Notes: a model not told the origin generated them from the letters alone. A DNA stretch of 64,000 nt from Dehalococcoidia bacterium (GCA_040902555.1 JBBDXC010000001.1:150662-214661), one strand, 5' to 3'; positions 22,843 to 52,680 are shown, counted from the first letter of the stretch. Translations and numbers: made by a program.

Positions 22843-22847
22843 GTGGG

Positions 22848-28278: not shown

Positions 28279-29811
28279 GTGTCGCTCGCCAAAGTCTATT
28301 CCTGCGCCCTCTCCGGCCTCGATGGGGAGCTCATAGAGGTCGAGGTCGATGTAAATACTGGGCAGGTCGCCTTCATCGTCGTTGGGCTCGGCGACACTGC
28401 CGTCCAGGAGGCCAGGGAGCGAATCCGTTCGGCGGTCAAGAACTCCGGCTGCCGGATGCCATTCAACCGCAAGGTCACGGTCAACCTGGCCCCCGCCGAC
28501 ATTCGCAAGGAGGGTCCCAGCTACGACCTGCCGATGGCCGTCGGCCTGCTGATCGCGTCCGGTCAGGTGATCGCCGATGTCAGGGGCTCCGTCTTTATCG
28601 GCGAGCTTTCCCTGGACGGCCGCGTGCGGCACACCCACGGTGTGCTGCCGATGGTCGCGCTGGCCCGCGAGCGCGGTATCCAGCGCGTCTTCGTCCCCGA
28701 GGACGACGCTGCCGAGGCGGCACTGGTCGAGGGCATCGAGGTCATCCCCGTGGCCAGCCTGTCTCAACTGATCAATCACTTGTCGCAGGTGCAGCCGATA
28801 GCAGCCTTCGAAGGGAAGGGGGCGCCTGCGGCGACCTGCCCCCCGGAGGTGATGGACTTCACGCATATCAAGGGTCAGGAGCACGTCAAGAGGGCGCTGG
28901 AAGTCGCCGCCGCGGGAGGGCACAACGTGCTGATGACAGGCCCGCCCGGCGCGGGCAAGACGCTGCTGGCACGTGCGATGCCCTCGATCCTGCCGACGAT
29001 GGCGCCTGATGAGTCGCTGGAGGTCACAAAGATCTACAGCGTCGCCGGGCTCCTGCCCTCGCAAACGCCGCTGCTGCGGCAGCGGCCGTTCCGCGCGCCC
29101 CACCACACGATCTCCCATGCCGGGCTGGTCGGCGGGGGACGAATTCCAAGGCCGGGCGAGATCACTCTCAGCCATCGCGGTGTCCTCTTCCTCGACGAAC
29201 TCCCCGAATTCGGGCACGCGGTGCTCGAAGTCATGCGGCAGCCGCTGGAAGACCGGCTGGTGACGATATCGCGGGCACAGGGCACCCTCACGTTCCCGGC
29301 CAACTTCATGCTCGTCTCGGCGATGAACCCCTGCCCCTGCGGCTACTTCGGGGATTCCGCGCGTGCCTGCACCTGCTCCGACGGCGCGGTGGCTCGCTAT
29401 CAAAAGCGCATATCAGGACCTCTCCTCGACCGCATCGACATCTTCGTCGAGGTGCCACGCGTGGACTTTGAGAAGCTATCCGGCGACGGCTACGGCGAGT
29501 CGTCGGAGGCTGTGCGCGAGCGAGTCGAGGAGGCGCGAGGCCGGCAGTCAATGCGCTTCAGCGAGTCGCGGCTGACCTGCAACGCCGAGATGACGGCGGT
29601 CGAAGTCCGCGAGTACTGCCAGAGCGCCCTGGACGAGGCGTCTCGCTCGCTGTTGCGGATGGCGATGGACCAGCTTTCGTTCTCCGCACGCTCGTTCCAC
29701 CGCATTTTGAAGCTGGCCCGCACGGTCGCGGACCTCGATCACTCCTCGACGATTGAGTCCCGGCACCTGGCCGAAGCGCTGCAGTATCGCCAGCGCAGCA
29801 TGGCCGCTTAG
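28279..29811 (+). CDS. comM: YifB/ComM family Mg-chelatase-like AAA+ ATPase.
   Basis: N-terminal Lon-like domain plus AAA+ core (GPPGAGKT) and C-terminal ChlI-like domain. GTG start with GGAGGGA Shine-Dalgarno. Confidence 0.85.
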   Translation: MSLAKVYSCALSGLDGELIEVEVDVNTGQVAFIVVGLGDTAVQEARERIRSAVKNSGCRMPFNRKVTVNLAPADIRKEGPSYDLPMAVGLLIASGQVIADVRGSVFIGELSLDGRVRHTHGVLPMVALARERGIQRVFVPEDDAAEAALVEGIEVIPVASLSQLINHLSQVQPIAAFEGKGAPAATCPPEVMDFTHIKGQEHVKRALEVAAAGGHNVLMTGPPGAGKTLLARAMPSILPTMAPDESLEVTKIYSVAGLLPSQTPLLRQRPFRAPHHTISHAGLVGGGRIPRPGEITLSHRGVLFLDELPEFGHAVLEVMRQPLEDRLVTISRAQGTLTFPANFMLVSAMNPCPCGYFGDSARACTCSDGAVARYQKRISGPLLDRIDIFVEVPRVDFEKLSGDGYGESSEAVRERVEEARGRQSMRFSESRLTCNAEMTAVEVREYCQSALDEASRSLLRMAMDQLSFSARSFHRILKLARTVADLDHSSTIESRHLAEALQYRQRSMAA

Positions 29812-31002
29812 ACCACGCCGCGTTCGCGGAGAGCGGCGAGCTGCTCCCACGTGTACCCCGCTTCCAGCAGGACCTCCTCGGTGTGCTGGCCCAGTTCGGG
29901 GGCGGCGTTGCCCGTTGCCGCCGGGGTTTCGGAGAAGTTGATCGGGAGCCCCACAACGTCGACCTCGCCCCGCCCGGGGTGGTCGATGGTGACTATGTAG
30001 TTGTTGAGCCGGGCCTGCGGGTCCTCCTTCAGGTCGTTGTAGGTAAGGACCGGGGCGTAAATGAGGTCCTCGGCCTTAAGACGCTCGAGCCACTCCGCAT
30101 TGCTTCGCGTTAGGAACGCTTCTTGAAGCAGTTCGTGCAGTTCGCCCAGGTTGGCCGAACGCACGAAGTGGTTCTCGAAGCGCGGGTCATGCTCTAGATG
30201 CTCGAGGTTGGCGGCCCGGCAGAGGCCCGGCCAGCGGCTCTCGCCGATGCCACAGACGACCAGGAACGAGTCCTTCGTTTTGAAAACGCGCCAGATCGTG
30301 GGCACCAGCCGGTGTCCCTTCTCCGCCTTCTCGCCGTTGATCCCGGTGATCAGGCTGTAGGTGATCTCCCAGGCCTGCATCGCCATCGTGGAGCCAAGTA
30401 GCGAAACGTCGAGCGACTGGCCCTTGCCGGTGCGCTCCCGGACGAACAGCGCCGTGACGATGCCGAGGGCCAGGTTCACAGCGCCCGTGTAGTCGGCGAT
30501 GGCGGCCCCGGCCGGCACCGGAAACTCGCCGTCGCCGGTGACGCCGATAAGGCCGCCCATCGCCTGGCCGGCGATGTCGAACCCTGGTTCGCCCGCCCGC
30601 TCGCCCTGCGTCCCCCAGGCGGTGGCGAAGGCGTAGATCACGTCCGGGTTGACGGCCTTGATGTCCTCATAGGCCAGGACCTAGCCGCTCCATTACCCCC
30701 GGCCGGAAGTTGTGGGCGACCACATCGACTTCGGCCGCGAGCTTGAGGATGACGCTGCGGCCCTCCTTGGCCTTGAGGTCGATGGCGATGCCCCGTTTGC
30801 CGCGGTTGTGGGCCAGGAAGTAGGGCGAGAAACGGTCATCACCGAGGATCGTCATGTAGCGGCCGAGGTCGCCCAGCAATGGCGGCTCGACCTTAATCAC
30901 GTCCGCCCCAAGGTCAGCGAGCATGCGAGTACCCTCGGCGCCCTGCTGGAACATCGTGAAGTCCAAAATGCGTATTCCTTCCAGCGCACCGACCATGGTC
31001 AC
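29808..31002 (-). pseudogene. CaiB/BaiF family III CoA-transferase, interrupted by a 1-nt frameshift near 30655-30668.
   Basis: N-terminal fragment 30667..31002 (…RILDF…VIKVEPP…) ends …MERLGPGL*. C-terminal frame 29808..30641 opens as VLAYEDIKAVNPDVIYAF…. Removing one C from the ggcc run restores the family's LGPGYEDIKAVNP junction. Confidence 0.6.
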
Positions 31003-40851: not shown

Positions 40852-41291
40852 GCGGTATCGTCCTTCCGGATGAGGGGGATCAGGGTGTCTACAGCTTCAA
40901 GATAGCCCTGCCAGCCCTTACCCGTGATCAGGGCGCGGGCAGCGGTGGCGGTGATGAAGGAGTGGCGGAAGGGCTCGCGCGTAGCCGGATCGGAGATGTG
41001 GACCTCGACTACGGGCAGGTTGGTGTCGGCCAGGGCATCGCGGAGGGCGACGCTGTAGTGGGCGAGGCCGCCGGGGTTGATGATCACGCCGTCGGCGCCG
41101 GCGGACTCGGCCTGCAGCCAGTCGATCAGGGCGCCCTCGTGGTTGGACTGGAAGTCCCTGAGCTCGGCCCGGTCGCCGAGGCGCTCGCGGACGGCGGCGA
41201 CGACCTCGGCGAGGGTCGTGGTGCCGTAGACAGCGGGGTCGCGGCTACCCAATTTGTTGAGGTTGGGGCCGCTCAGGAGGAGGACGCGCAT
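40848..41291 (-). CDS. aroQ: Type II 3-dehydroquinate dehydratase.
   Basis: LLSGPNLNKLGSRDPAVYGTTTL…HISD: the AroQ family signature. Confidence 0.9.
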   Translation of the reverse strand: MRVLLLSGPNLNKLGSRDPAVYGTTTLAEVVAAVRERLGDRAELRDFQSNHEGALIDWLQAESAGADGVIINPGGLAHYSVALRDALADTNLPVVEVHISDPATREPFRHSFITATAARALITGKGWQGYLEAVDTLIPLIRKDDTA

Positions 41292-41813
41292 GGAACCTCG
41301 GGGGTTTGTGTGGTTGTTCTTTTGTTTGTTTGTTTTGCGGTTTCGTGAAGCTGGCGAGGGCGGGGTTCAGATTCGGCGGGGATTTGTTTGATTGTTTTGC
41401 TGTTTGCGGGTGGGGTGGTGGCGCGGGCGGTTGAGGAGGGATAGAGAGGCATGGGTTTAGAAGATACGTTCTAAGGGGGTATGGTGTCAATCCCCCGGGG
41501 GGTGCTGCCTGTTGGTTTCCGATAACCGGCGTTGTCGTCGTCGAAGGTTGGGGAGGGCTTTGCGGGCTTCGAATGGAATGTCGGCAGCGTGCGGGGGATT
41601 CGGGCGGTATGCGGGCGACGGTCCCCACCAGGGCACAGACCTCCCCTACAGGGGAGCCCCTACACCGATTTTCGGGCTTCGGTCCCGGGGCGTACGTCGT
41701 TTGCGAGGACCGTGCGCGGAAGCACAGGCCTCCCCTACAGAAACGGCCGGATCGCCGGTTTGGCCGGCAAGCAGCGGCGAAGCGGTGCGCTATGGGCCAG
41801 AGGTTTGGACGGG

Positions 41814-43754
41814 TCAGGGGATGCTGGTTACGGTTTCGCAGCCAGCGGCGGCTTCGCCGCCGAGGAAGCTGTCGGGGTTGGCGCCGCCGTGGCACTTATC
41901 GTTGGCGCCGTTCTCGCCGGCAAGCCTGTCCTGCCCGGGGCCGCCGAGGAGGGTGTCATTGGCGTCGCCACCCTTGAGCCTGTCGTTGCCGAGCCTACCC
42001 TCGATTTTGTTGATCGCCGTTGAACCGGTGATCTTGTCGTTGCCGTCGCCGGCGCGGACCCGCTCAACCGAGATGAGGCGGACACCGGCGCCCTCGCCGC
42101 TGGCGGCGCCCGTGGCCAGATTTATGACGCGGCCGAGGTCCCCTGTGAATAGGGCGGTGTCGGTGCCGGCGCCGCCATTGATGGTGTCCTGGCCGGCGCC
42201 GCCGTTGATTGTGTCGTTGCCGGTCCCGGAGCAGATGAGGTCGTTGCCGCCCTTGCCGTTGATCGTGTCGGCACCGCTGAGGCCGAGGATGACATCGACT
42301 CCCGGCGTGCCATTGAGCACGTTGGCGGCGTTGTCGCCGGCGATGGTCTCCGGTTTGCCCTGGCAGAAGCGTGCTTCGAAGGCGCCGATGTCGCAGCTAT
42401 TGCCCTGTGGCCGGGGGATGCCGCGCTGGTCGCGCTTGTTGACCGTGTTCATATCGTCGCACGTTGTGTCATCGCCCTTGTTGAGCGCGGGGCTGCCCGC
42501 CAGCAGGGCATGGGTTAGCGTGGGACCGCCGTTGTCCTGTAAGGGCCCAAGCAGCGGGTCGGTGGAGGGCTGGTCACTGAGCTGATCGAGGTTGCAGGTG
42601 CCATCGCCGTCGATGTTGTTGCCCGCGGAGATGATGTTTCCTTCGCAGTCATCGAAGGTCTTCTGGTCAGTCCCGTCGACGATCGTGTTGCGCAGCGTCA
42701 TGCTGGAATTGCCCGCGAACAATTCTGTTTTGCCATTGAGACGGATGGTGCTGTTGGTGACGGTGGCTGTGCCGCCGCTCAGCCCTATGGCCCCTGCGTT
42801 GCTGCTGCTATTCATGCTGAGCGTGCTGTTAACGACGGTCAGCACTCCGGTATCTGTCTCGACGGCTCCGTTGCTGGCGGACGCAACGTTGTTTGTGAAA
42901 AGGCTCTGGATGATGTCGAACGACGCGCCGTTGTTGAAGATGCCGCCGGCGCTGTGGGCGTTGTTGTCGGCAATGGTGCTGCGGACCAGGTCAACGCTGC
43001 CGAGGGCGCCGTCGTTGTAGATGGCGCCCCCGTCCGCGGCGTCATCGTTTGCTGAAGCCGGCCCGTTGGAGACGATCGCCGAGGCGGTGATCCTCAACGT
43101 GCCCAGGTTGTAGATGCCACCGCCCCTCGGGTCGGAGAAGCTTTCGTCGGTGCCGACGTTGTCTGCGATCAGGCTGTTCATGATTGTCAGGTTGCCGGTG
43201 TTGTTGTTGTGAATGCCGGCACCGTCGTTAGCGGTCGCGTTATCCCTTACGGCGACGTTGTCGAGGGTCAGGAAGCCGGAGTTCCGCAGCCCGCCGCCGA
43301 GGTCGACGTCGTAGCCATTCTGAATGGTGAGGTTGGACATGGTGACTACCGAGGTGCCGATGGCAAAGAGACGGCTGGCATCGCCGCCGTCGATCAGCGT
43401 GATGTCCCGTCCGGCGCCGACGATGTTCAGGCTGCTGTCGGGAATCGTAATCTGGCCGTTATCCACAGTAAACGTGTCGGGGCCGGGCGCGCCGAGGTCG
43501 GGGATGACGATGTCGTCCGGGCTGCCGCTGACGTTGAGGGCAGTGGCGATCGCCCCGCGTAGCGAACAGTCGTTGGCCACGTTGTCGAAACAGTCATCCG
43601 GCACCGGTGCGATGGGGTCGTCGGTCCGATCGACCGTGTAGACGGCGGCGAGAACCCTCTCAGGCTGCGACAGCTGAAGCCCGAGGAGGAGCGCCAAAGC
43701 GACAACGCCAAGAAGTGACAGGCCCAGCCTCGAGAGTCGCAGCGGACGGTTCAT
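41814..43754 (-). CDS. Secreted right-handed beta-helix (Pmp/GGAI-repeat) protein with CSLREA-like N-terminal cap and RTX-type calcium-binding C-terminal module. Paralog 1 of 3.
   Basis: Signal peptide. CSLRGAIATALN cap. GGGIYN/GGAIYN Pmp-like repeats. C-terminal GGxGxD nonapeptides ending …CETVTSIP. Confidence 0.7.
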   Translation of the reverse strand: MNRPLRLSRLGLSLLGVVALALLLGLQLSQPERVLAAVYTVDRTDDPIAPVPDDCFDNVANDCSLRGAIATALNVSGSPDDIVIPDLGAPGPDTFTVDNGQITIPDSSLNIVGAGRDITLIDGGDASRLFAIGTSVVTMSNLTIQNGYDVDLGGGLRNSGFLTLDNVAVRDNATANDGAGIHNNNTGNLTIMNSLIADNVGTDESFSDPRGGGIYNLGTLRITASAIVSNGPASANDDAADGGAIYNDGALGSVDLVRSTIADNNAHSAGGIFNNGASFDIIQSLFTNNVASASNGAVETDTGVLTVVNSTLSMNSSSNAGAIGLSGGTATVTNSTIRLNGKTELFAGNSSMTLRNTIVDGTDQKTFDDCEGNIISAGNNIDGDGTCNLDQLSDQPSTDPLLGPLQDNGGPTLTHALLAGSPALNKGDDTTCDDMNTVNKRDQRGIPRPQGNSCDIGAFEARFCQGKPETIAGDNAANVLNGTPGVDVILGLSGADTINGKGGNDLICSGTGNDTINGGAGQDTINGGAGTDTALFTGDLGRVINLATGAASGEGAGVRLISVERVRAGDGNDKITGSTAINKIEGRLGNDRLKGGDANDTLLGGPGQDRLAGENGANDKCHGGANPDSFLGGEAAAGCETVTSIP

Positions 43755-43756
43755 CG

Positions 43757-46700
43757 TTACGGGATGCTCGTGACGACTTCGCAGCCGGCGCTAACGGCGG
43801 AGCCGCCGATGAACGTGTCGGGGTTGGCGCCGCCGTGGCATTTGTCGTTGGCGCCGTTCTCGCCGGCGAGCTTGTCCTGGCCGGGGCCGCCGAAAAGCTT
43901 GTCATTGGCGTCGCCGCCCCTGAGCCTGTCGTTGCCGAGCATGCCTTCGAGCCTGTTGATTGCCGTTGATCCCGTGATCTTGTCATTGCCGTCGCCGGCG
44001 CGGACGTGCTCGATAGAGGTGAGGCGCACCCCGACGCCCTCACCCGAGGCCGCTCCGGTGGCGAGGTTGATGGTGCGTGCCAGGGTTCCCGGGAACAGGG
44101 CTGTGTCAGGGCCGCCGCCGCCATGGATGGTGTCCTGGCCAGGGCCGCCGTCGATCCTGTCGGCCCCACCCTCGCCGAAGATCTGGTCGCCACCCGCACC
44201 GCCATTGATGATGTCGTTGCCTGCGCGGCCGCAGATCAGGTCCTGGCCGCCCGCACCGTTGATCGTTTCCCCGGCGGCTGTCCCGACGATGACGTCGGCG
44301 CCGTTGGTGCCTTGAATTAGACCGTCGGTATCCTGCCAGATCGTGGCCTTCTGACCGCCGCAGCTGGGGCGGTTGTCGCTGCCGTCGCAGGCGTTGCCGG
44401 CGCCATCCTGGTCGACGTCCTCCTGCCCGGGATTGGCGTTTTCCGGGCAGTTGTCCTGCTCGTCGAGGATGGTGTCGCTGTCGTGGTCGGTCTCCGGGCA
44501 ACCGTCGCCGTCGCCGACGCCGTCGAGGTCTTCAGGCACCAGGGGGCAGGCGTCGTTCTGGTCCTCGACCAGGTCCGCATCGGCGTCGGTTTCGGGGCAG
44601 CCGTCCGTGTCCTCGACGCCGTCGAGGTCTTCGGGCGTGTCGGGGCAGCCGTCGCTGCCATTGGCGATCCCATCGCCGTCCCTGTCCGGGTCGCAGGCGT
44701 CGCCCGCTCCGTCGCCGTCATTGTCCTCCTGGCCGGCGTTGGCTGTGGTTGGACAGTTGTCGGCGGGTGCAACCTGGCAGTCGGAGGGGCCGTCCGTGGC
44801 TGCGCCCGGGTTGCAGATGCCGTCGCCGTCAGCGTCGACCTGGAGCGCGGAGCAGCCGCTGGCGTCGACTGTGGCCCCTGAGGCCGTGTTCGGGCAGAGG
44901 TCGACCCCGTCGTCAACGTCGTCACCATCGGCGTCCGTAATCGGCGTGATCGTGACCTCGTCGTAGTCGTCCTCGGTGGTGACGCCGTTATTGGGAATGG
45001 AGTCAGGGTCCCAGCGGTCGTTGGCGGTGACTTCAGCCGTGTTGGTGACATCGGAAAGCGTATCTACGGTGGCCACTATCGAGAGAGTGGGCGCAGTCCC
45101 CTGCAGCACCTGACCCACGGTCCAGACGCCGTTGCCCGGGTTGTAGGTGCCCTGAGCAGCGGCGTGCGATACGTAGGTCAGCCCGGCAGGAAGCAAGTCC
45201 GTGACCGTCACGTTCTCTGCTTCATCTGTGCTGTTGGCCTGGTTGTGCGTGAGCGTCAGTGTGAAGGTGATGCTCTGGCCCTCGGTGGGCGTCGAGTCGG
45301 TCACTTCTTTATCAAGCTCCAGGTCGGCCCTCGTGCCGGTGATGAATGTGCATGCGGAAAACTCGGAGGTGTTACCGGTGGGGTCGGTGGCTGTGGCGGT
45401 AACGCCTTCTCCGGGCGTCAGAGGCGCGTTGGTGAGGAAGCTGTCTGTACCGCTGGCTGGATAACTGCCATCCGCGTCGGTAAGAACCGTCAGAGTTTTG
45501 ATCAGGGTCTCGCCTTCGCCGAAGGCAGGCGCCACGTTGCAAACTCCGACGAAGAAATCGAGGTCATAGCTCTTGTTCGGCTCGCTCTGCAGGCTGAAGG
45601 TCACGGTTGTGGCTGTACCGGTACTGGCGGCGGTTGCTATGTCCGGGAAATTCTGCAGGTTGTTGGGGCCGCCATCGCTGTCGTTGTTGACGTCGGCGTC
45701 GTTGTTGGTCACGCCGTTATCGGCGAGGTCGATGCCAAGGCCCAGGTTGCCGAAGATGGAGTTTCCGCGGATCCTGTTGTTCGTCGCTAGATCCGAAGGC
45801 GTGTTACCGACGAGCACTGCGTCGCCCTGGTTCCCCTGGATCCGGTTGCACGCCCCGGTGCAGCCATCCTCCGGGGTCAAGCCAGTCGTGCCCCCGATCG
45901 TGTTGTCGTGGGCGCCGTTACCGATGAAAACACCCAAGCCGTTGCCGCCCACGTTCCCACCGCCGGCGGCGGGGCCGATGTAGTTGCCCTGGATCGTATT
46001 GTTCTTGGTCTGCAGGCCGGACAACTGAACGCCGTCGCCGGTGTTGCCTGAAATCACGTTACGCGCGGCGGGGGTGGTCCCGCCGACGGTTGTCCCGCTG
46101 GTCTCGAAGTTGGAGCCCGCCGGCGAAATCGCAATGCCCACGAGGTTGGCGATGGCCGCGGTACCGTTGACGTCGACGCCGATGAAGTTGCCGGCGATTA
46201 CAGCGCTGTTTGGACCGATGCTGGTCCCCTGCACCGCGATGCCGATGCTGCCGTTACCGGAGATCAGGTTGCAGGAACCGCTGCAGGGTCCATCGGGGTC
46301 GGTACCGGTTTCGCCGCCAATTTGGTTACTGGGCGACTGGATCAAGATCCCGCGGCCGCCGTTGCCGAGGTCCGCGATGCCGTCTTTGTCGGTGCCGATA
46401 TAGTTGCCCCTGACGAAGTGCCCACCCGAGCCGGTGAGTATGATGGCATCCTCTGTGTTGCCTGAGATAACGTTGCGGTCGGCGGCGGTTGTACCTCCGA
46501 TAATGTTCCCTGTCGAACCGGTTTGAACAACAATCCCGAGTGAACCAGCGTTGCCGACGGCAGTCCCGGTGGCGTCCGTCCCGATGTAGTTGCCGGCGAT
46601 GATGTTGCTGCCATTGGTGGCGATGTTGAGCCCCGCGCCGGCAGAGTGGTTGATGACCAGGCCACCTATCGTGCTGCCGCCGGCTGTGATAAACAGGCCG

Positions 46701-47152
46701 CGGTCGATGACGATGATCGGTGAGCCGGCGAAGTCGGGTTCGCTGGTCCCGTCGATGCGGATGGACTGAGTAATTTGAGGGAGGTCCGTACCGAGCGTGA
46801 TCGCGTAGGGCGGCGCTCCGCTCAGGTCGAAGTTGATGATATCGACGTCTGCAGTGCCGGCGTTGGCCTCCTGGATGGCGGCGCGCAGCGTACAGGCGCC
46901 GGCGCCGGTGTCGCAGATGTCGTCGTTTAAGTTGGCGTCCGCCCCATCGCCGGTGCTGTTGACGACGAACGGCGCGTGGTTGGCGCTGGCGGCGGGGACT
47001 TCGCTGCTGACCACAGCCAGGGACAGGGCAATGAGCGCCGCCAAGGTTGAGAAGAAGCCCACCGGCCTTGAGATCAGCGCCACTGCACCACCATCGGCCC
47101 CGGACGGGAACCGTAATGCCCGCAGCTTATGTCTGCTACAGCACTGAGTCAA
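43757..47152 (-). CDS. Giant secreted beta-helix/DUF11/thrombospondin-type-3-repeat protein with the same RTX-type C-terminal module. Paralog 2.
   Basis: CTLRAAIQEAN cap. Beta-helix repeats. DUF11-like domain (LELDKEVTDSTPTEGQSITFTLTLTHN…). TSP3-like DxDxDGxxDxxDNCP repeats. C-terminus …CEVVTSIP. Stop lies only 2 nt before the paralog 1 ATG. Confidence 0.7.
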   Translation of the reverse strand: MTQCCSRHKLRALRFPSGADGGAVALISRPVGFFSTLAALIALSLAVVSSEVPAASANHAPFVVNSTGDGADANLNDDICDTGAGACTLRAAIQEANAGTADVDIINFDLSGAPPYAITLGTDLPQITQSIRIDGTSEPDFAGSPIIVIDRGLFITAGGSTIGGLVINHSAGAGLNIATNGSNIIAGNYIGTDATGTAVGNAGSLGIVVQTGSTGNIIGGTTAADRNVISGNTEDAIILTGSGGHFVRGNYIGTDKDGIADLGNGGRGILIQSPSNQIGGETGTDPDGPCSGSCNLISGNGSIGIAVQGTSIGPNSAVIAGNFIGVDVNGTAAIANLVGIAISPAGSNFETSGTTVGGTTPAARNVISGNTGDGVQLSGLQTKNNTIQGNYIGPAAGGGNVGGNGLGVFIGNGAHDNTIGGTTGLTPEDGCTGACNRIQGNQGDAVLVGNTPSDLATNNRIRGNSIFGNLGLGIDLADNGVTNNDADVNNDSDGGPNNLQNFPDIATAASTGTATTVTFSLQSEPNKSYDLDFFVGVCNVAPAFGEGETLIKTLTVLTDADGSYPASGTDSFLTNAPLTPGEGVTATATDPTGNTSEFSACTFITGTRADLELDKEVTDSTPTEGQSITFTLTLTHNQANSTDEAENVTVTDLLPAGLTYVSHAAAQGTYNPGNGVWTVGQVLQGTAPTLSIVATVDTLSDVTNTAEVTANDRWDPDSIPNNGVTTEDDYDEVTITPITDADGDDVDDGVDLCPNTASGATVDASGCSALQVDADGDGICNPGAATDGPSDCQVAPADNCPTTANAGQEDNDGDGAGDACDPDRDGDGIANGSDGCPDTPEDLDGVEDTDGCPETDADADLVEDQNDACPLVPEDLDGVGDGDGCPETDHDSDTILDEQDNCPENANPGQEDVDQDGAGNACDGSDNRPSCGGQKATIWQDTDGLIQGTNGADVIVGTAAGETINGAGGQDLICGRAGNDIINGGAGGDQIFGEGGADRIDGGPGQDTIHGGGGPDTALFPGTLARTINLATGAASGEGVGVRLTSIEHVRAGDGNDKITGSTAINRLEGMLGNDRLRGGDANDKLFGGPGQDKLAGENGANDKCHGGANPDTFIGGSAVSAGCEVVTSIP

Positions 47153-47179
47153 GGATGCGCAGCGACTAACCGGCGTCCG

Positions 47180-50100
47180 TCAGGGGATGCTGGTCACGCT
47201 TTCGCAGCCGGCGGCGACGGCGGTGCCACCGATGAACGAGTCGGGGTTGGCGCCGCCGTGGCACTTGTCGTTGGCGCCATTCTCGCCGGCGATCTTGTCC
47301 TGGCCGGGGCCGCCGAGGAGGGTGTCATTGCCATCGCCGCCCTTGAGCCTGTCGTCGCCGAGCCCGCCCTCCAACCTGTTGATCGCCGTTGAACCGGTGA
47401 TCTTGTCGTTGCCGTCGCCGGCGCGGACGTGCTCGATCAAGATCAGACGGATGCCGGCGCCCTCGCCGGTGGCGGTGCCTATGGCGAGGTTTATGGTGCG
47501 GCCGACGGCGCCGGTGAAGACTGCCGTGTCGGCGCCCGCACCGCCGTTTACGGTGTCCTGGCCGGGGCCACCATCGATGGTGTCGGAACCGCCCTCGCCG
47601 AAGACCTTGTCGGCGCCGCCGCCGGCGTTGATGAGGTCGTTGCCGGCGCCGGCGCAGATGATGTCGTTGCCGCCGTTGCCGTTGATGCTCTCGCCACTGG
47701 CAGTGCCAACGATGACGTCGGCGGCGGCGGTGCCGGTTATAGTGCCGTCGGTGTCCAGCCAGATGGTGGCGAACTGGCCGTCGCAGAGCGGGCGATCGTC
47801 GCTGCCGTCGCAGACATCGCCGATGTCGTCCTGGTCGGTGTCCTGCTGGTTCGTGTTGGCGTTTTCGGCGCAGTTGTCTTGCTCATCGAGGATTGTGTCG
47901 CCGTCGAAGTCAGTCTCCGGGCAACCATCCCCATCGCCGAGGCCGTCGAGGTCTTCGGGCGTCAACGGGCAGGCGTCGTCCTGGTCCTCGACGAGGTCCG
48001 CGTCGGCGTCAGTTTCAGGGCAGCCGTCCGTGTCCTCCACGCCGTCGAAGTCCTCGGCCGAGTCGGGGCAGCCGTCGTTCAGGTTCAGGATCCCGTCTCC
48101 GTCGTTATCATCCCGCTCGAAGGCGCCGATGTCGCAGATTGCCGTCGTGTCGGAGTCGCCGTCGAGCGGCCTTGTCACACCCCGCTGGTCGAAACCGCCG
48201 ATGGCGGTGCAGGTGGCGTCGTCGCCGGCGTCAACCGCTGGGCTGGCGGCCAGCAGGGCGTGGGTTTTGGTCGGGCCGCCGTTCTCGGCCAGTGTGGGCG
48301 AGAGGCCGGCGTCGGCGACGTTGTCCTGGTTGCCGTTGGCGCCGCCTAGGGAGCAGGAGGCGTCGTCAGAGAGGTTGTGGCCTGCGGCGCTGGAGACAAC
48401 AACCTTGCAGTTATCGCCCGTGTTCTGCGCCAGCAACACGTTGGTGATCGTCAGCGTGCCGAAAGCGTCACGTTCGAGGGCGCCGCCGGTTAGGCCGGTG
48501 GCGGACAGGGTGATGGTGGTGTTTGCGATTGAAGCCGTGCCCTGGGTGGCGATCGCACCACCCTGCTGCGTCGCCGAGTTGTCGCTGAAGGTGCTGTTGG
48601 TCACGGTAAGGTCGCCGGCGTAGACGGCGCCCCCGCGGGCGGCGCTGTTGCCATCGAAGGTGCTGTCGGTGATCGTCCCTCCGCCGTGGATGGCGCCTCC
48701 GAAGCCGCCTGTGGCGCTGTTATCGCTGAAGGTGCTGGCGTCAACGGTGAGGGTGCCGAGGCTGCTAATGGCGCCCCCGTTGCCGTCGGTCGCGGTGTTC
48801 GACGTGAATACAGTGCTGGAAACCTGCAGGCTGCCGCCTGCGGCAACGCCGACCCCGCCACCACCCAGGCCGGAGTTGCTTGTGACCTCCAGATTGCTGA
48901 CCTCAGCGGCGAAGCTGCCGGTGACGAGAAGGGCGCCGCCGGGGAAGATCACTCCGCGGGCCGGGTAGTTGGCGAGCCCATTGGTCAGCGTGAGATCGGT
49001 GATGGTCACCGCATAAGGGCCGGGGTCCGCGGCGCTGTCCAGCTCGAAGAGGTGGCGGGTGTCCTGCCCATCGATAATCGTGCTCCCCGGGCCCTGGCCA
49101 TCAATCGTGAGGTTGCCTCGAACGTCCAGGCCTGAGTTGGAGCTCTGGATGAAGTTCACGGCCGGGAGTTTGATGGTGTCATGAGTGACCGGGTCGAAGT
49201 TGGCCTCGTCGAGGGCGGCACGCAGGGTGCACTGGTTGGCCGCCGTGGCGCAGAAGCCGTCGCCGATGTCGCCGTCCTGGGCCTCGGCCGTGCTGTTGAC
49301 GTTGAAGATCCGGGGGTTGGAGCCGTCGCAGACGTCGCCGAGGCCGTCGTTGTCGGTATCGGCCTGATCAGTGTTGACGACGAGCGGGCAGTTGTCCTCC
49401 GGGTCGTTCACGGTATCGCCATCGGTGTCCGCGTCGGCGGCGGCCAGCTCGTAGGCGCCTATGTCGCAGCGCGAGGTGGCGTCCGCGTTGCCGTCCTGGG
49501 GCCGCGCTACACCGCGCTGGTCGGTGGTTGGACAATTGAAGCCGGAGCCGTCGCTCAGGGTGTTGCCCTGGTCGATCGCCGGGCTGCCGGTGAGGAGGGC
49601 GTGGGTCCGGGTCGTGGCCGTCGGACCGGGGTTGAGGGCGAGGGCATCCAGGCTGGCGAACAAACCCGCGTCGGCGGTGATCAGCGGGTTGCCTGCGCCG
49701 CCCCCGCAGCCAGAGTCGCTGGCGAGGTTGTTGCCTTCATTTCTAATCTCGCTGCCGCCGCTGCAGTCGAGGTTCGAGTTGTCGCTGGCGATGATCGAGT
49801 TCGAGACGAACGTGGTGCCGGTCGCCGAGCCGCCGGGGTCGTGGATGTTGCCCCCGTCGGGGTTGGGGTCCAGGTTGGTCGCTGCGTTGTTGTAGAGGGT
49901 GACGCTGATCAGTTGCAGGTGGCCCGGGCCACCGTTGCTGGTGCCGCCGCCCTGGCCGGCGGTGACAAAGTTGGCGCTGAGCGTCGAGTTTGTCACGGTG
50001 GCCAGGGATGTGGAGTGGTTGAAGATAGCGCCGCCGTCGGAGGTCGAGAAGTTGCGGTCGAAGGTGCTGTTGCTGACCAGCAGGCCGCCGGTGTTGTGGA

Positions 50101-50878
50101 TCCCGCCACCCCGACCGGGGAAGGGGTTGGAGCCGGCAAAGTTCTGCAAGAAGGTCGTGTTGTCGACCTCCACGATCCCGCCTGGGTCGTTGTGGATACC
50201 ACCGCCGTGACCGGCGGGCGCGCTGTTTCCGTTGAGGCTGCTGTTGACGACTGTGAGCTTGCCCTGGCCGTCGTTAAAGATGGCGCCGCCGTTGCGGGTG
50301 CCGGCGCCGCCAACCGATGCGTTGCCGGTGAGGACAACGCCGTCGAGGACAAGGTCGGCGTTGGGCCTGTTGCGGATGGCTCCGCCCGGACCGTCGAGGC
50401 GCTCACCGTTGGTGACGGTCAGATTCCTGATGATCACCGCGCAGGTGAAGGTGCCGGGGGCGCCGGCCGGGCAGACGGTTTCGAAAACGCGGTCCTGATG
50501 CTGGCCGCTGATGCTGGTGGAGCCCGAGCCGGCCCCATTTATCTGGAGGTCCTTCGTAATGTCGAGGTCACCCGTCGCGGCGGCCTGCTCGTCGGCGTTG
50601 GGCGGACCGGCGTTGATGATGGAGAGACTGTAGTTGCCGGCCGGCAGGGTGATGATGTCGGGGCCGACAGTGGAGTTCGCCTTGATGATGGCGCCGCGGA
50701 GCGAGCAGTCGCCGGCCGCGCCCGTGCAGGCCTGGAGCGCGGCGCTATCGGTGGTTGTGTCTACTTCTAGCGTGTCGGCGAGCGCCGCGCGTGGCGCAGC
50801 CAGTTGCAGGGCAATGAGAATTGCCGCGCCGATGAGAGCGCTGCTCTTCAAGAGGAGGACGAGTCGAGCGTGCACCAT
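47180..50878 (-). CDS. Giant secreted protein with two CSLREA-capped beta-helix (Pmp GGAI repeat) regions, TSP3-like repeats and RTX-type C-terminal module. Paralog 3.
   Basis: Signal peptide. CSLRGAIIKAN and CTLRAALDEAN caps. Many GGAI/GGGIHN repeats. DxDxDG-rich TSP3 stretch. C-terminus …CESVTSIP. Confidence 0.7.
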   Translation of the reverse strand: MVHARLVLLLKSSALIGAAILIALQLAAPRAALADTLEVDTTTDSAALQACTGAAGDCSLRGAIIKANSTVGPDIITLPAGNYSLSIINAGPPNADEQAAATGDLDITKDLQINGAGSGSTSISGQHQDRVFETVCPAGAPGTFTCAVIIRNLTVTNGERLDGPGGAIRNRPNADLVLDGVVLTGNASVGGAGTRNGGAIFNDGQGKLTVVNSSLNGNSAPAGHGGGIHNDPGGIVEVDNTTFLQNFAGSNPFPGRGGGIHNTGGLLVSNSTFDRNFSTSDGGAIFNHSTSLATVTNSTLSANFVTAGQGGGTSNGGPGHLQLISVTLYNNAATNLDPNPDGGNIHDPGGSATGTTFVSNSIIASDNSNLDCSGGSEIRNEGNNLASDSGCGGGAGNPLITADAGLFASLDALALNPGPTATTRTHALLTGSPAIDQGNTLSDGSGFNCPTTDQRGVARPQDGNADATSRCDIGAYELAAADADTDGDTVNDPEDNCPLVVNTDQADTDNDGLGDVCDGSNPRIFNVNSTAEAQDGDIGDGFCATAANQCTLRAALDEANFDPVTHDTIKLPAVNFIQSSNSGLDVRGNLTIDGQGPGSTIIDGQDTRHLFELDSAADPGPYAVTITDLTLTNGLANYPARGVIFPGGALLVTGSFAAEVSNLEVTSNSGLGGGGVGVAAGGSLQVSSTVFTSNTATDGNGGAISSLGTLTVDASTFSDNSATGGFGGAIHGGGTITDSTFDGNSAARGGAVYAGDLTVTNSTFSDNSATQQGGAIATQGTASIANTTITLSATGLTGGALERDAFGTLTITNVLLAQNTGDNCKVVVSSAAGHNLSDDASCSLGGANGNQDNVADAGLSPTLAENGGPTKTHALLAASPAVDAGDDATCTAIGGFDQRGVTRPLDGDSDTTAICDIGAFERDDNDGDGILNLNDGCPDSAEDFDGVEDTDGCPETDADADLVEDQDDACPLTPEDLDGLGDGDGCPETDFDGDTILDEQDNCAENANTNQQDTDQDDIGDVCDGSDDRPLCDGQFATIWLDTDGTITGTAAADVIVGTASGESINGNGGNDIICAGAGNDLINAGGGADKVFGEGGSDTIDGGPGQDTVNGGAGADTAVFTGAVGRTINLAIGTATGEGAGIRLILIEHVRAGDGNDKITGSTAINRLEGGLGDDRLKGGDGNDTLLGGPGQDKIAGENGANDKCHGGANPDSFIGGTAVAAGCESVTSIP

Positions 50879-51086
50879 ATCCAGCTTTGCGGAGCTAGTA
50901 GCCGGACTCTAGTTGCGCACCCCCGAAAAGTCAACATAAGCGTGTGGTGGTTCGACGTCCCTTGCCGAAGCTTTCGGAGGTGGAGACGGCCCCGCATCCC
51001 CGCCCACCTCACCCCATTCCCCCTTCGCCGAGGCGAATCTTCGATCTCCGCAAGCAGAGAGGGGAAATGGCTAAGGTCGCAGCGGG

Positions 51087-52049
51087 TTATTGGCGGCGGG
51101 GGCTGTGCTGGGCGTAGAAGGCCTGGTCGTAGACCTCCTTCTGCCGGGCCTGGGTCACGTGGGTATAAATCTGCGTGGTGTTGACGTTGGAGTGGCCCAT
51201 GAGCTCCTGGACGATGCGCAGCTCGGCGCCGTTGTCGAGCATGTGGGTGGCGAAGCTGTGGCGCAGGAGGTGGGGGTAGACGCGCTGATCGATGCCTGCC
51301 TTGACGGCGTAGCTGCGCACCAGTTTCTGGACAGAGCGGGCGGAAAGGCGGCCGCCATCGCGGTTGAGGAAGAGCGCAGCGGAGCGGGTATGGCCCGGAA
51401 GGAGGCGGGGGCGGCCGTCCTTGAGGTACTGGCTGATCGCGGCGCGCGCCGGCCGGCCGATGAAGACGCGGCGCTCCTTGTCGCCCTTGCCGCGGACGAC
51501 GAGCTCTTCGCCGTCAGTGCTGAACTGGCCAAGGTCGACCTGCACGAGCTCGCTGACGCGGACGCCGGAGCTGAAGAGGAGCTCGAGGATGGCGCGGTCG
51601 CGCAGGCCCTGGGGGTTGTCGCGCTCGGGCGCGTTGAGCAGGGCCTCGATCTGTTCCATGCGCAGGAAGGAGGGGAGGCGCTGAGGCTTCCTCGGGCTGT
51701 GCAAGGCCAGGAGGCGATTGACCTGGATCTGCCCGTCGCGTTCGAGGTAGCGGAAGAAACCTTTGATCGTGCTGACCTTACGGATGACGCTGCCGCGCGA
51801 CATGCCGCGACCTGATAACTCAGCGAGGTAGCCGCGGACGACGTGGCGGTCGATGTCGAGCAGGCCGAGGCGTCGTTCTTCGACGTGTCGGGCGAAGTCG
51901 GAGAGGTCCTGGCGATAGTTGCGGAGGGTCAGCGGCGAAAGGTTCTTCTCGACGCCGCTGTCGGCAACATAGCGCTCGATGACCGGCGCCAGAGCGCTGG
52001 GGGCTGCCTCGCGGGCAGGACGAGGCGAGGCTGCGATGGAGGCGGTCAT
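51087..52049 (-). CDS. xerC: Tyrosine recombinase XerC-like.
   Basis: …HLLRHSFATHML…LMGHSNVNTTQIYTHV with an N-terminal core-binding domain. Confidence 0.8.
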   Translation of the reverse strand: MTASIAASPRPAREAAPSALAPVIERYVADSGVEKNLSPLTLRNYRQDLSDFARHVEERRLGLLDIDRHVVRGYLAELSGRGMSRGSVIRKVSTIKGFFRYLERDGQIQVNRLLALHSPRKPQRLPSFLRMEQIEALLNAPERDNPQGLRDRAILELLFSSGVRVSELVQVDLGQFSTDGEELVVRGKGDKERRVFIGRPARAAISQYLKDGRPRLLPGHTRSAALFLNRDGGRLSARSVQKLVRSYAVKAGIDQRVYPHLLRHSFATHMLDNGAELRIVQELMGHSNVNTTQIYTHVTQARQKEVYDQAFYAQHSPRRQ

Positions 52050-52125: not shown

Positions 52126-52680
52126 ATGGTCACGACGAGAAAGATGACGCTTGAGGAGTATCTGGAGCTGCCGCAGGCGAAGCCCTACCTGGAGTTCGTC
52201 GACGGGGAGGTTGTGGAGAAGATGTCACCTCAGGCGCAGCACTCACGCATTCAAGGGGCTCTTCTTGCGATGTTTGGGTCGTTGAAACCGTATGGATATG
52301 AGGCGCTTTCAGAATTGCATTCGCTTTTCGGCCGACCGGCCCGCGGCTATATCCCCGATGTCGTAATCGTGGCTACCTCGCGCCTGCAGCGGGACGAACG
52401 GGGCCGCGTTTTCGGCCCAATCAACTTTGCACCAGAGATCGCCATCGAGATATTGTCCCCGGACGACAGAGCGGGGCGTGTGCTTGAGAAGCTCACGTTT
52501 TACATGGATAACGGAGTGCAGTTAGCCCTGGTTATTGACCCCGATATAGAACGTGTCAGCGTGTACAGGCCCGGCCAGGCGCCGCTCCTTTTTCCGCGGT
52601 CGGCGACGATAGACCTTTCACCGGTTATCCCTGACTTCTCAATGGAGTTGGAGAAGGTCTTCGGGGCGCTGGAGGAGTAG
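52126..52680 (+). CDS. Uma2-family (DUF820) PD-(D/E)xK endonuclease-like protein.
   Basis: …YLEFVDGEVVEKMSP…PDVVIV…PEIAIEILSP… Uma2 signature. Confidence 0.8.
   Translation: MVTTRKMTLEEYLELPQAKPYLEFVDGEVVEKMSPQAQHSRIQGALLAMFGSLKPYGYEALSELHSLFGRPARGYIPDVVIVATSRLQRDERGRVFGPINFAPEIAIEILSPDDRAGRVLEKLTFYMDNGVQLALVIDPDIERVSVYRPGQAPLLFPRSATIDLSPVIPDFSMELEKVFGALEE

What the first reader, a model, noticed from the sequence alone, without database searches (positions are those of the whole stretch)
41814..50878. Three tandem paralogous giant secreted beta-helix proteins sharing a conserved RTX-type C-terminal module ending in -C(E)xVTSIP.
ORFs of 646, 1131 and 1232 aa are co-oriented with almost no spacers. 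All have Sec-type signal peptides, CSLR(G/A)AI-type N-caps, Pmp-like GGAI beta-helix repeats, and in two cases thrombospondin-type-3 repeats and a DUF11-like domain. Their last about 150 residues (…INLATGAASGEG…VRAGDGNDKITGSTAIN…GENGANDKCHGGANPD…GCExVTSIP) are near-identical. This looks like a surface adhesin or S-layer-like locus. The invariant C-terminal module combined with N-terminal signal peptides does not match a classical T1SS substrate (no signal peptide expected) or an LPXTG/PEP-CTERM substrate (no TM tail), so it could be an undescribed anchoring or export module.
Basis: partly seen in the sequence, partly recalled or inferred. Interest (0 to 1): 0.7.

Follow-up and report, generated by a model that had tools for sequence, protein, structure and literature searches.

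The report
Signal-peptide RTX calcium domain with cysteine caps
Three neighbouring genes of an uncultured Chloroflexota bacterium encode secreted beta-helix proteins that all end in a calcium-binding RTX domain closed by four conserved cysteines and a fixed ...CE-xxxx-IP end; this domain type turns out to be common in soil bacteria but has no family model, structure or paper of its own that I could find.

Summary
Three co-oriented minus-strand ORFs (646, 1131 and 1232 aa) have Sec-type signal peptides, CSLR-type N-caps and beta-helix passengers. They share a roughly 200-aa C-terminal RTX module, 69-71% identical overall and 80-82% over the last 116 aa. The window comes from a Dehalococcoidia MAG; NCBI names protein A a 'choice-of-anchor Q domain-containing protein'.

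The module is not a T1SS signal and not a TM-type sorting signal. It is a beta-roll bounded by four conserved cysteines: C1-x43/44-C2 at the start and D-x-C3-x-G-G...C4-E-x4-I-P-COOH at the end.

- 98 matches were preceded by RTX repeats the pattern did not ask for.
- All 63 complete ORFs hit PF00353, and at least 49 have signal peptides.
- 38 have exactly four cysteines, and many are stand-alone proteins of 117-190 aa.

No Pfam or NCBIfam model, PDB chain or searchable paper covers the cap.

Best reading: a Sec-exported, probably disulfide-capped RTX domain that folds with calcium outside the cell. An anchoring or docking role is possible but untested.

The module is a new variant of a known kind, and interest is moderate.

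The parts
47180..50878 (-). Gene C (1232 aa). Signal peptide aa 1-34; CSLRGAI at aa 58; beta-helix unit 1; choice_anch_Q no. 1 (about aa 415-477); TSP3; CTLRAAL at aa 550; beta-helix unit 2 with POMP repeats; choice_anch_Q no. 2 (aa 862-922); TSP3 (aa 923-1025); RTX module.
43757..47152 (-). Gene B (1131 aa from the TTG at 47152; more likely 1108 aa from the GTG at 47083). Signal peptide; CSLREA_Nterm (aa 62-97); GN[YF]IG beta-helix; DUF11 (aa 610-722); TSP3 repeats (aa 726-924); RTX module.
41814..43754 (-). Gene A (646 aa), identical to NCBI MEX2236089.1. Signal peptide aa 1-36; CSLRGAI at aa 63; beta-helix passenger modelled at mostly pLDDT >90; choice_anch_Q (aa 399-461); RTX module.
47183..47785 (-). 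Four-cysteine RTX module of C (aa 1032-1232). C1 1032, C2 1075, C3 1206, C4 1225; ends CESVTSIP.
43760..44362 (-). Four-cysteine RTX module of B (aa 931-1131). C1 931, C2 974, C3 1105, C4 1124; ends CEVVTSIP.
41817..42365 (-). Four-cysteine RTX module of A (aa 464-646). C1 464, C2 508 (spacing 44, the family mode), C3 621, C4 639; ends CETVTSIP. It lacks two nonapeptide repeats that B and C have.
41817..41894 (-). C-terminal cap of A (aa 621-646: C3-HGGANPD...G-C4-E-TVTS-IP-COOH). The equivalent caps are 43760-43840 in B and 47183-47263 in C.
50906..50934 (-). Sigma-70-like promoter match (TTGACT-17-TAGAGT) 28 nt upstream of the start of gene C, a candidate promoter for a C-B-A operon. This is a consensus match only.

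Best explanation
The locus is a three-gene tandem array, probably one operon, in a Dehalococcoidia (Chloroflexota) genome. It encodes Sec-exported right-handed beta-helix proteins of the CSLREA / choice-of-anchor Q / rhombotarget-A-like kind.

Each protein ends in an autonomous calcium-binding RTX beta-roll domain of a distinct, widespread type used with signal peptides rather than with type I secretion.

Proposed mechanism:
1. The N-terminal signal peptide takes the unfolded chain through Sec.
2. The RTX repeats stay unfolded in the low-calcium cytoplasm and fold into a beta-roll once outside, where they bind Ca2+.
3. The four conserved cysteines form two disulfides. C1-C2 staples the first turns, and C3-C4 staples the last turn to the final strand E-x4-[IV]-P.
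4. These staples supply the end caps that RTX beta-rolls need in order to fold. In T1SS substrates a C-terminal flanking segment does this job.

The module therefore stabilises, and may rigidify or present, the passenger on or near the cell surface, together with the calcium-binding TSP3 repeats in B and C.

Shown here: the domain content, the RTX identity, the conserved four-Cys and terminal architecture, its wide distribution, and its link with signal peptides.

Inferred: the disulfides, calcium-dependent folding, the cap function and the cellular location.
For: RTX identity:
- PF00353 scores 64-72 bits in all three proteins.
- PDB sequence hits are CyaA RTX blocks, serralysins and lipases.
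- The AF2 model of the module is a run of short strands with pLDDT 70-86 over residues 30-170.
- Its best PDB fold matches are CyaA RTX and serralysins, though with weak E-values.

Much of the module is generic RTX. A profile of the last 116 aa hits 123,083 representative proteins, and the best-matching stretches rarely reach the last ~10 residues.

The caps are conserved in homologues:
- P0153 ends ...SSCETGVP, and its N-cap is 70% identical to A's over 77 aa.
- P0156 is 40% identical to C from C1 to the terminal IP.
- P0154, P0204 and P0227 show the same pattern, as does a Solirubrobacteraceae ORF in L001.

Metagenome scan for CDGG-x(6-12)-CE-x(2-4)-[IV]P-stop:
- 98 hits have RTX repeats upstream.
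- All 98 have exactly x4 after CE, and Asp at position C3-2 in 98/98. Neither was specified in the pattern.
- 63 of 63 complete ORFs hit PF00353.
- 49 of 63 are signal-peptide-like by a crude rule.
- C1-C2 spacing has its mode at 44, the same as in protein A.

Cysteine counts:
- After the signal peptide, counts are even in 55 of the 63 ORFs and exactly 4 in 38.
- Proteins A, B and C have 10, 24 (B counted from the likely GTG start) and 26 cysteines, all even.
- By contrast, 150 classical giant RTX proteins have mostly 0-2 cysteines, and none has the cap.

All 95 RTX-preceded cap motifs (D-x-C-x-G...C-E) found in the fetched DNA lie six residues from a stop codon. Five of these were not selected by the scan pattern.

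Literature:
- A C-terminal capping structure is critical for RTX folding (PMC9120197 and PMC5618222 abstracts).
- RTX genes occur in Actinobacteria that lack T1SS components (PMC3034196).

The passenger of A is a confident beta-helix. Its best PDB matches are rhombotarget A (9CDV/9CDU) and pectate or alginate lyases.
Against: - No coordinates were available, so Cys-Cys distances could not be measured.
- The tail is modelled with low confidence: pLDDT 50-58, and below 50 for the whole module in the full-length model.
- Two metagenomic fragments depart from strict pairing. P0275 has F where C4 would be, and P0277 has no cysteines yet still ends VSIP.
- The window's C3-C4 spacing (18-19) is longer than the family norm (12-14).
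- A strictly terminal position with an invariant six-residue length and a terminal Pro is more than a simple cap strictly requires, and could mean the end is recognised by something.
- Most of the metagenome sample was selected on C3 and C4, so their co-occurrence is not an independent test.
- Taxonomy of the metagenomic members is unknown. Only Dehalococcoidia and Solirubrobacteraceae are named.
Confidence: 0.68

Rival explanations
1. Non-covalent anchoring or docking module. The capped beta-roll binds, in a calcium-dependent way, a component of the cell envelope (a wall polymer, an S-layer or a partner protein). It would hold varied passengers at the surface, much as dockerin, SLH or cell-wall-binding modules do.
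For: - The module is always C-terminal and is attached to unrelated passengers: beta-helices here, and subtilase, trypsin-like, NHL, SGL and phytase-like domains in metagenomes.
- In homologues of protein A, the segment after choice_anch_Q is instead a putative sorting tail. It is a YLP-box in 32 of 120 and a TM-plus-basic (MYXO-CTERM-like) tail in 4 of 120. The RTX module therefore sits in the 'anchor slot'.
- Within the locus the module is much better conserved than the passengers: 80% against 32% or less.
Against: - Many family members are signal peptide plus module only, with nothing to anchor.
- No partner gene is present in the window.
- Modules within the same MAG differ greatly (A/B/C against P0204/P0227), which does not fit a single shared receptor.
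- No binding data exist.
Confidence: 0.2
2. Ultrashort C-terminal sorting or processing signal. The invariant end C-E-x4-[IV]-P-COOH is recognised by an unidentified enzyme that cleaves or attaches the protein, by analogy with the YLP-box.
For: - The position is strictly terminal, the length is fixed (x4 in 98 of 98) and the last two residues are [IV]-P.
- NCBIfam already holds a precedent for a roughly 10-residue putative sorting motif in the same protein family (NF050076 and NF053834).
Against: - The tail lies inside the cysteine-bounded cap of a folded repeat domain, which is a poor protease substrate.
- No candidate enzyme is adjacent in the window.
- L001 ends NCEADTSHS and P0252 ends NCTP, so the IP end is not universal.
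- An alternating hydrophobic pattern (V/I/L at CE+3 in 54 of 98, then [IV]P) fits a terminal beta-strand.
Confidence: 0.07
3. Type I (ABC/MFP-dependent) secretion substrates, with the RTX region acting as the secretion ratchet and the tail as the signal.
For: - RTX repeats at the C-terminus are the hallmark of T1SS substrates (PMC6891781 and PMC8486122 abstracts).
- A Gram-positive HlyB/HlyD-like operon next to an RTX gene has been noted in S. sanguinis (PMC3034196).
Against: - Signal peptides are present in all three proteins and in at least 49 of 63 family members.
- There is no 50-60-aa signal after the repeats.
- There are many cysteines, whereas classical substrates have almost none.
- No ABC, MFP or OMF gene is in the window.
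- The host phylum is regarded as monoderm.
Confidence: 0.03

Closest known systems
RTX / HemolysinCabind beta-roll domains of T1SS substrates (CyaA RTX blocks, serralysins, family I.3 lipases)
   Same: - GGxGxDxUx nonapeptide repeats, with strong PF00353 matches.
- The block-linker-block layout resembles CyaA. The linker DTAxF...INLAxGxAxG...IExVxG..NDxItG is a unit that recurs tens of times in giant RTX proteins.
- Both need a structure that caps the end of the roll.
   Different: - An N-terminal Sec signal peptide is present.
- No C-terminal secretion signal follows the repeats.
- Four conserved cysteines bound the domain.
- The chain ends six residues after the last cysteine.
- The host is a (probable) monoderm with no T1SS genes nearby.
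Choice-of-anchor Q (NF041518) / CSLREA (TIGR04214) beta-helix proteins, including rhombotarget A (TIGR04212; PDB 9CDV)
   Same: - A and C pass the choice_anch_Q cut-off, and B passes CSLREA_Nterm.
- NCBI already names protein A this way.
- The best PDB fold match of A's passenger is rhombotarget A.
   Different: - Rhombotarget A ends in a GlyGly-CTERM signal processed by rhombosortase.
- Most Chloroflexota homologues end in a YLP-box.
- These three proteins end in the capped RTX module instead.
YLP-box putative sorting motif (NF050076 sort_motif_YLP / NF053834 ultrashort_CTERM)
   Same: It is a very short, strictly C-terminal conserved end in the same protein family and phylum, and it occupies the same position after choice_anch_Q.
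   Different: - The sequences differ: [FY]LP[LI][IV][LIM][RK] against CE-x4-[IV]P.
- The YLP-box follows the passenger directly. The CE..IP end is part of a roughly 80-200-aa folded repeat domain.
Dockerin, SLH and other C-terminal surface-retention modules of monoderms
   Same: These are calcium-dependent (dockerin), C-terminal, modular and attached to varied secreted passengers.
   Different: There is no sequence or family match, no partner is known, and the function is untested. This is an analogy only.

Membership tests
RTX / HemolysinCabind (PF00353) | Tandem GGxGxDxUx nonapeptides scoring above the Pfam gathering threshold | tested here: met
   71.5, 64.1 and 67.1 bits against a cut-off of 23. 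Repeat positions are listed.
RTX / HemolysinCabind (PF00353) | Parallel beta-roll fold | tested here: inconclusive
   The AF2 module model has regular short strands, but mean pLDDT is only 69.9. Its best PDB matches are RTX structures, with E no better than 4e-3.
RTX / HemolysinCabind (PF00353) | Ca2+ binding and calcium-induced folding | not testable with these tools
   This needs biochemistry.
Classical T1SS substrate | No N-terminal signal peptide | tested here: not met
   All three proteins have an n-region, h-region and AxA-type N-terminus. The model of A has a helix at residues 9-25.
Classical T1SS substrate | Uncleaved secretion signal of about 50-60 aa after the last repeat | tested here: not met
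   Each protein ends six residues after C4, directly after the last repeat. The generic RTX giants have long non-repeat tails instead.
Classical T1SS substrate | Linked ABC transporter, MFP and outer-membrane factor genes | tested here: not met
   None was found among the called genes scanned with Pfam across the window. The rest of the genome could not be searched.
TM-type C-terminal sorting signals (LPXTG, PEP-CTERM, GlyGly-CTERM, MYXO-CTERM and others) | Signature motif, then a hydrophobic helix, then a basic tail, matched by an NCBIfam model | tested here: not met
   No NCBIfam family hits the last 35 aa at E<=10. The maximum 18-residue hydropathy of A's tail is 0.6.
YLP-box (NF050076 / NF053834) | C-terminal [FY]LP[LI][IV]x[RK] end | tested here: not met
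   It is absent from A, B and C. It is present in 32 of 120 homologues.
Choice-of-anchor Q domain protein (NF041518) | Domain score of at least 25 bits | tested here: met
   A scores 91.6 bits and C 123.9 bits with two copies. B has no hit.
CSLREA_Nterm (TIGR04214) | Domain score of at least 25 bits | tested here: inconclusive
   B scores 30.9 bits and passes. A scores 13.0 and C 11.2, below the cut-off, although the CSLRGAI motif is present.
Chlamydial Pmp repeat (PF02415 / TIGR01376) | Repeat model above its cut-off | tested here: inconclusive
   C scores 50.2 bits on TIGR01376 against a cut-off of 15, but 19.8 bits on Pfam against 20.6. A and B have no hit.
TSP type 3 repeat (PF02412) and DUF11 (PF01345) | Models above the gathering score | tested here: met
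   TSP_3 scores 43.7 bits in B and 51.8 in C. DUF11 scores 93.5 bits in B only. A has neither.
RTX S-layer proteins (RsaA type) | Cysteine-free, T1SS-secreted, abundant lattice former | tested here: not met
   The proteins have 10-26 cysteines and signal peptides. The family definition is taken from PMC3034196.
Sec-type four-Cys capped RTX module (defined here) | - Signal peptide on the protein.
- C1-x(about 41-44)-C2 N-cap of the form C.G..TI.G...ND.IC.G.
- D-x-C3-x-G-G.
- C4-E-x4-[IV]-P-COOH. | tested here: met
   A, B and C have spacings of 44, 43 and 43, and ends CE-TVTS/VVTS/SVTS-IP. The family consensus comes from 63-98 metagenomic members. The window's C3-C4 spacing is longer than usual (18-19 against 12-14).

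The most novel reading that the evidence does not exclude
The four-cysteine RTX module with its invariant C-E-x4-[IV]-P-COOH end could be a calcium-dependent surface-retention or docking device of high-GC monoderm bacteria (Chloroflexota, Actinomycetota). It would be functionally interchangeable with the YLP-box and MYXO-CTERM-type tails that occupy the same position in homologous choice-of-anchor Q proteins. That would make it an unrecognised way of attaching Sec-exported proteins to the envelope.
Probability: 0.17. Interest if true: 0.7.

Novelty: new variant of a known kind. Interest (0 to 1): 0.4.

Why it matters
RTX repeats are usually taught as the signature of type I secretion in Gram-negative bacteria. 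A 2010 review noted RTX genes in Actinobacteria that lack T1SS components and left their export unexplained (PMC3034196).

This locus, together with the metagenome sample it led to, shows a coherent and abundant class of RTX domains that travel with Sec signal peptides. These domains carry their own cysteine-bounded caps.

If the inferred disulfide caps are real, they show a second solution to the problem of nucleating a beta-roll, without the vectorial C-to-N folding of T1SS.

The stand-alone versions, with a mature domain of about 80 residues, would be compact calcium-switchable scaffolds for protein engineering. Much of that work currently relies on CyaA block V.

A dedicated family model would also improve annotation of many proteins now labelled only 'calcium-binding protein' or 'choice-of-anchor Q domain-containing protein'.

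Tried and rejected
- Exact-match look-ups of protein A and P0204 in the contig index found nothing, so no neighbourhood of the same-MAG paralogues could be read.
- A word-indexed search with the last 116 aa gave only one weak hit among 33 candidates.
- A word-indexed search with a 46-aa cap profile gave only six short fragments.
- An exhaustive profile search of the last 116 aa was swamped by giant classical RTX proteins. It was useful only as a contrast set.
- The GTDB genome scan with the window's own module picked over-specific patterns. It returned seven loci at 30-38% identity, of which only the Solirubrobacteraceae ORF in L001 shows the same four-Cys architecture.
- The afdb50 fold library was not available.
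- The full-length AF2 model gave no usable structure for the module (pLDDT below 50). Disulfide geometry could not be checked because coordinates are not exposed.
- Fresh gene conversion as the cause of the similarity was rejected, because dS between modules is 0.34-0.60.
- I looked for a genomic island or mobile element around the locus. GC content is flat, and the neighbours are housekeeping genes (aroQ, pepP, efp, xseA; xerC, topA, dprA, rlmN, fmt).
- There are no Rfam hits or tRNA genes in the window.
- Literature searches for a Sec-dependent or cysteine-capped RTX domain found nothing specific.


Full report
**What is in the sequence**

Three minus-strand ORFs lie head to tail at 47180-50878 (C, 1232 aa), 43757-47152 (B, 1131 aa) and 41814-43754 (A, 646 aa). 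The gaps between them are 27 and 2 nt. Codon-position GC is that of real genes in a 65% GC genome. A sigma-70-like match sits 28 nt upstream of C, so one C-B-A operon is plausible but not shown.

Protein A is 100% identical to NCBI MEX2236089.1, 'MAG: choice-of-anchor Q domain-containing protein [Dehalococcoidia bacterium]', on a 218,611-bp contig. The exact B and C sequences as I called them are not in the collection. B probably starts at the GTG at 47083, which gives a textbook signal peptide MALISRPVGFFSTLAALIALSLAVVSSEVPAASA.

**Domains**

All three proteins pass PF00353 (RTX) at the C-terminus.
- A and C pass choice_anch_Q, and C has two copies because it holds two beta-helix units.
- B passes CSLREA_Nterm, DUF11 and TSP_3.
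- C passes TSP_3 and POMP_repeat.
- A and C show the CSLRGAI motif but fall below the CSLREA cut-off.
- B's helix uses GN[YF]IG repeats, not Pmp-type GGAI repeats.

An AF2 model of A built on 31 homologues gives a beta-helix over residues 37-460, mostly at pLDDT >90, and a helix over the signal peptide. Its best PDB matches are rhombotarget A (9CDV/9CDU), then pectate and alginate lyases and phage tailspikes.

**The shared C-terminal module**

The last 209 aa are 69-71% identical and the last 116 aa are 80-82% identical. B and C share 309 aa at 77%, which includes their TSP3 repeats. The passengers of A and C are only 32% identical.

Synonymous divergence between the modules is substantial (dS 0.34-0.60), with dN/dS of 0.21-0.35. 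The similarity is therefore paralogy under purifying selection, not a fresh conversion tract. The module cassette does appear younger than the passengers.

Each module has exactly four cysteines.
- C1 begins it, in the motif C.G..TI.
- C2 follows 43-44 residues later inside a repeat, in the motif ND.IC.G.
- C3 lies in the last canonical repeats, as NDKCHGG.
- C4 is 18-19 residues further on.
- C4 is followed by E, four residues, I, P and the stop codon.

**Is the module special or just RTX?**

Much of it is generic.
- It matches CyaA RTX blocks, serralysins and lipases in the PDB.
- Its AF2 model is a moderate-confidence stack of short strands, and its nearest solved folds are again RTX domains.
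- A profile of the last 116 aa hits 123,083 representative proteins. The best-matching stretches almost never reach the final ~10 residues.
- The internal linker (DTAxFxG...INLAxGxAxGEG...IExVRAGDGNDKITG) is the block-to-block unit that giant RTX proteins repeat dozens of times.

What is specific is the pair of cysteine-bounded ends. None of the 150 top generic RTX proteins has the cap, and most have 0-2 cysteines in thousands of residues. No NCBIfam model touches the last 35 aa even at E<=10. No PDB chain aligns to the CE..IP positions of a cap profile.

**Conservation elsewhere**

Homologues of A from other samples carry the same architecture.
- P0153 ends SSCETGVP, and its N-cap is 70% identical to A's.
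- P0154 ends SCEAILSIP.
- P0156 is a two-unit protein like C, 40% identical to C's module from C1 to the terminal IP, linker included.
- P0204 and P0227 are two more proteins of the same MAG on another contig. They have short modules ending SCEAGIP and SCEQGIP.
- A Solirubrobacteraceae (Actinomycetota) genome encodes a signal-peptide protein with the same four-Cys layout (L001).

I then scanned JGI metagenomes with a DNA pattern that encodes only CDGG-x(6-12)-CE-x(2-4)-[IV]P-stop.
- 108 were in frame and ended in a stop codon. 98 of these were preceded by RTX nonapeptides that the pattern did not require.
- In all 98 the spacer after CE is exactly four residues, and Asp is invariant two residues before C3.
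- Of 63 complete ORFs, all hit PF00353.
- 49 have a signal-peptide-like N-terminus by a crude rule, and several more do by eye.
- Cysteine counts after the signal peptide are even in 55 and exactly four in 38.
- The commonest C1-C2 spacing is 44, as in protein A.
- About half of the complete ORFs are shorter than 200 aa. These are a signal peptide plus the module and little or nothing else.
- A few carry other passengers: subtilase with a fervidolysin-type prodomain, trypsin-like peptidase, NHL propeller, SGL or phytase-like domains. Two are CSLREA/choice_anch_Q proteins like those here.
- Contig GC is mostly 0.64-0.75.
- Every RTX-preceded cap motif in all fetched DNA lies six residues from a stop codon.

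**Context**

No gene in the 64-kb window encodes an ABC exporter, MFP, TolC, sortase, exosortase, rhombosortase or obvious thiol oxidoreductase. The flanks are aroQ-pepP-efp-xseA on one side and xerC-Uma2-topA-dprA-rlmN-fmt on the other.

Chloroflexota are increasingly regarded as monoderm (abstract of 10.1101/2025.08.19.671072).

**Interpretation**

Export is accounted for by the signal peptides. The module cannot be an export signal, because it is itself the only cargo in many family members.

The simplest reading is an autonomous extracellular beta-roll domain. It would be kept unfolded by low cytoplasmic calcium, which suits Sec, and would fold outside the cell.

RTX rolls are known to need a C-terminal capping structure to fold (PMC9120197 and PMC5618222). 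Here the conserved Cys pairs at both ends, the even cysteine counts and the fixed terminal strand fit disulfide-stapled caps. That step is inferred, not shown. I could not measure distances, and the tail is modelled with low confidence.

**The anchoring idea**

In 120 homologues of A, the segment after choice_anch_Q takes one of several forms.
- It is a YLP-box in 32. NCBIfam already models this as a putative ultrashort sorting motif (NF050076, NF053834).
- It is a TM-plus-basic tail in 4.
- It is the capped RTX module in 6.

The module therefore occupies the 'anchor slot', is modular, and is strictly terminal. This keeps a docking or retention role alive, and I put it at about 0.2.

Against it are the stand-alone forms, the lack of any partner, and the divergent modules within one genome.

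A processing-signal reading (about 0.07) and a T1SS reading (about 0.03) are weaker.

**Novelty**

The genes themselves are annotated members of known families. RTX genes in T1SS-less Gram-positive bacteria were noted in 2010 (PMC3034196).

The four-Cys, Sec-linked, CE-x4-[IV]P-terminated RTX domain has no model in Pfam or NCBIfam and no solved structure. No description turned up in the searchable literature.

I class it as a new variant of a known kind, of moderate interest.

Noticed in passing
window 29808-31002 (-): A CoA-transferase family III gene is split over two adjacent ORFs. ORF 30667-31002 covers profile positions 1-101 and ORF 29808-30641 covers positions 115-366. This is a frameshift, a pseudogene or an assembly error.
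   Followed up: no
window 21958-23600 (-): The 3-hydroxyacyl-CoA dehydrogenase ORF 22848-23600 ends inside its C-terminal domain (3HCDH positions 1-48 of 97). It overlaps an ORF with no Pfam hit (21958-23070), which suggests a frameshift.
   Followed up: no
window 7045-12121 (-): Type I restriction-modification genes are present: HsdM at 7045-8556 and an HsdR-like helicase at 9725-12121. The unannotated gap at 8556-9725 may hold the specificity subunit.
   Followed up: no
window 26805-27716 (-), 51087-52049 (-), 52126-52680 (+): There are two XerC/D-type tyrosine recombinases, one immediately upstream of the locus. A Uma2-family endonuclease gene lies between xerC and topA. There are no other signs of a mobile element, and GC content is flat.
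   Followed up: partly
homologues P0157, P0166, P0167, P0187, P0217 and others: 32 of the 120 best homologues of protein A end, a few residues after choice_anch_Q, in [FY]LP[LI][IV][LIM][RK]-COOH. This is the YLP-box putative sorting motif already modelled by NCBIfam (NF050076, NF053834). Four others have MYXO-CTERM-like TM tails.
   Followed up: yes
P0204 and P0227 (MEX2238473.1, MEX2238471.1): The same MAG encodes two further 535-aa choice-of-anchor Q proteins on a 299,624-bp contig. Their accession numbers differ by two. Both have a short four-Cys RTX module ending SCEAGIP or SCEQGIP. Their neighbourhood could not be fetched.
   Followed up: partly
L030:2574-2924:+, L011, L034, L044, L059: Soil metagenomes hold stand-alone mini-proteins of 117-120 aa. 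Each is a signal peptide plus an 80-odd-residue four-Cys RTX domain (GSTCFGAPVTIIGSEGADTIKGT...RCDGGSGHDTAAGCETTSSIP). They would make a compact model for testing the cap hypothesis.
   Followed up: partly
L080:204-650:+, L046, L058, L102, L109, L125 and others: A 150-170-aa subfamily from lower-GC contigs (0.51-0.58) has a signal peptide followed by A(A/T)ANSVPxTRLDxD before the four-Cys RTX domain. This may be a different signal-peptide class; I did not identify it.
   Followed up: no
L016, second gene (+ strand, upstream of the gene matched by the scan at 2924-2992): The same contig carries a second RTX gene ending DICEGGNGTDAYSVTPDCEEADSIP*. It was not selected by the scan pattern, so it is an independent instance of the terminal cap.
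   Followed up: partly
L006 ORF 9671-10753: A Solirubrobacteraceae protein has a cap-like segment (DSIDCGPGNDTIAADGSDQLTGCENV) followed by about 190 more residues. A related cap can therefore be internal.
   Followed up: no
window 41291-41814: A 520-nt gap with no convincing ORF separates gene A from aroQ. It holds a sigma-70-like match at 41461-41490 (-) that could drive the aroQ-pepP-efp genes. There are no Rfam or tRNA hits anywhere in the window.
   Followed up: partly
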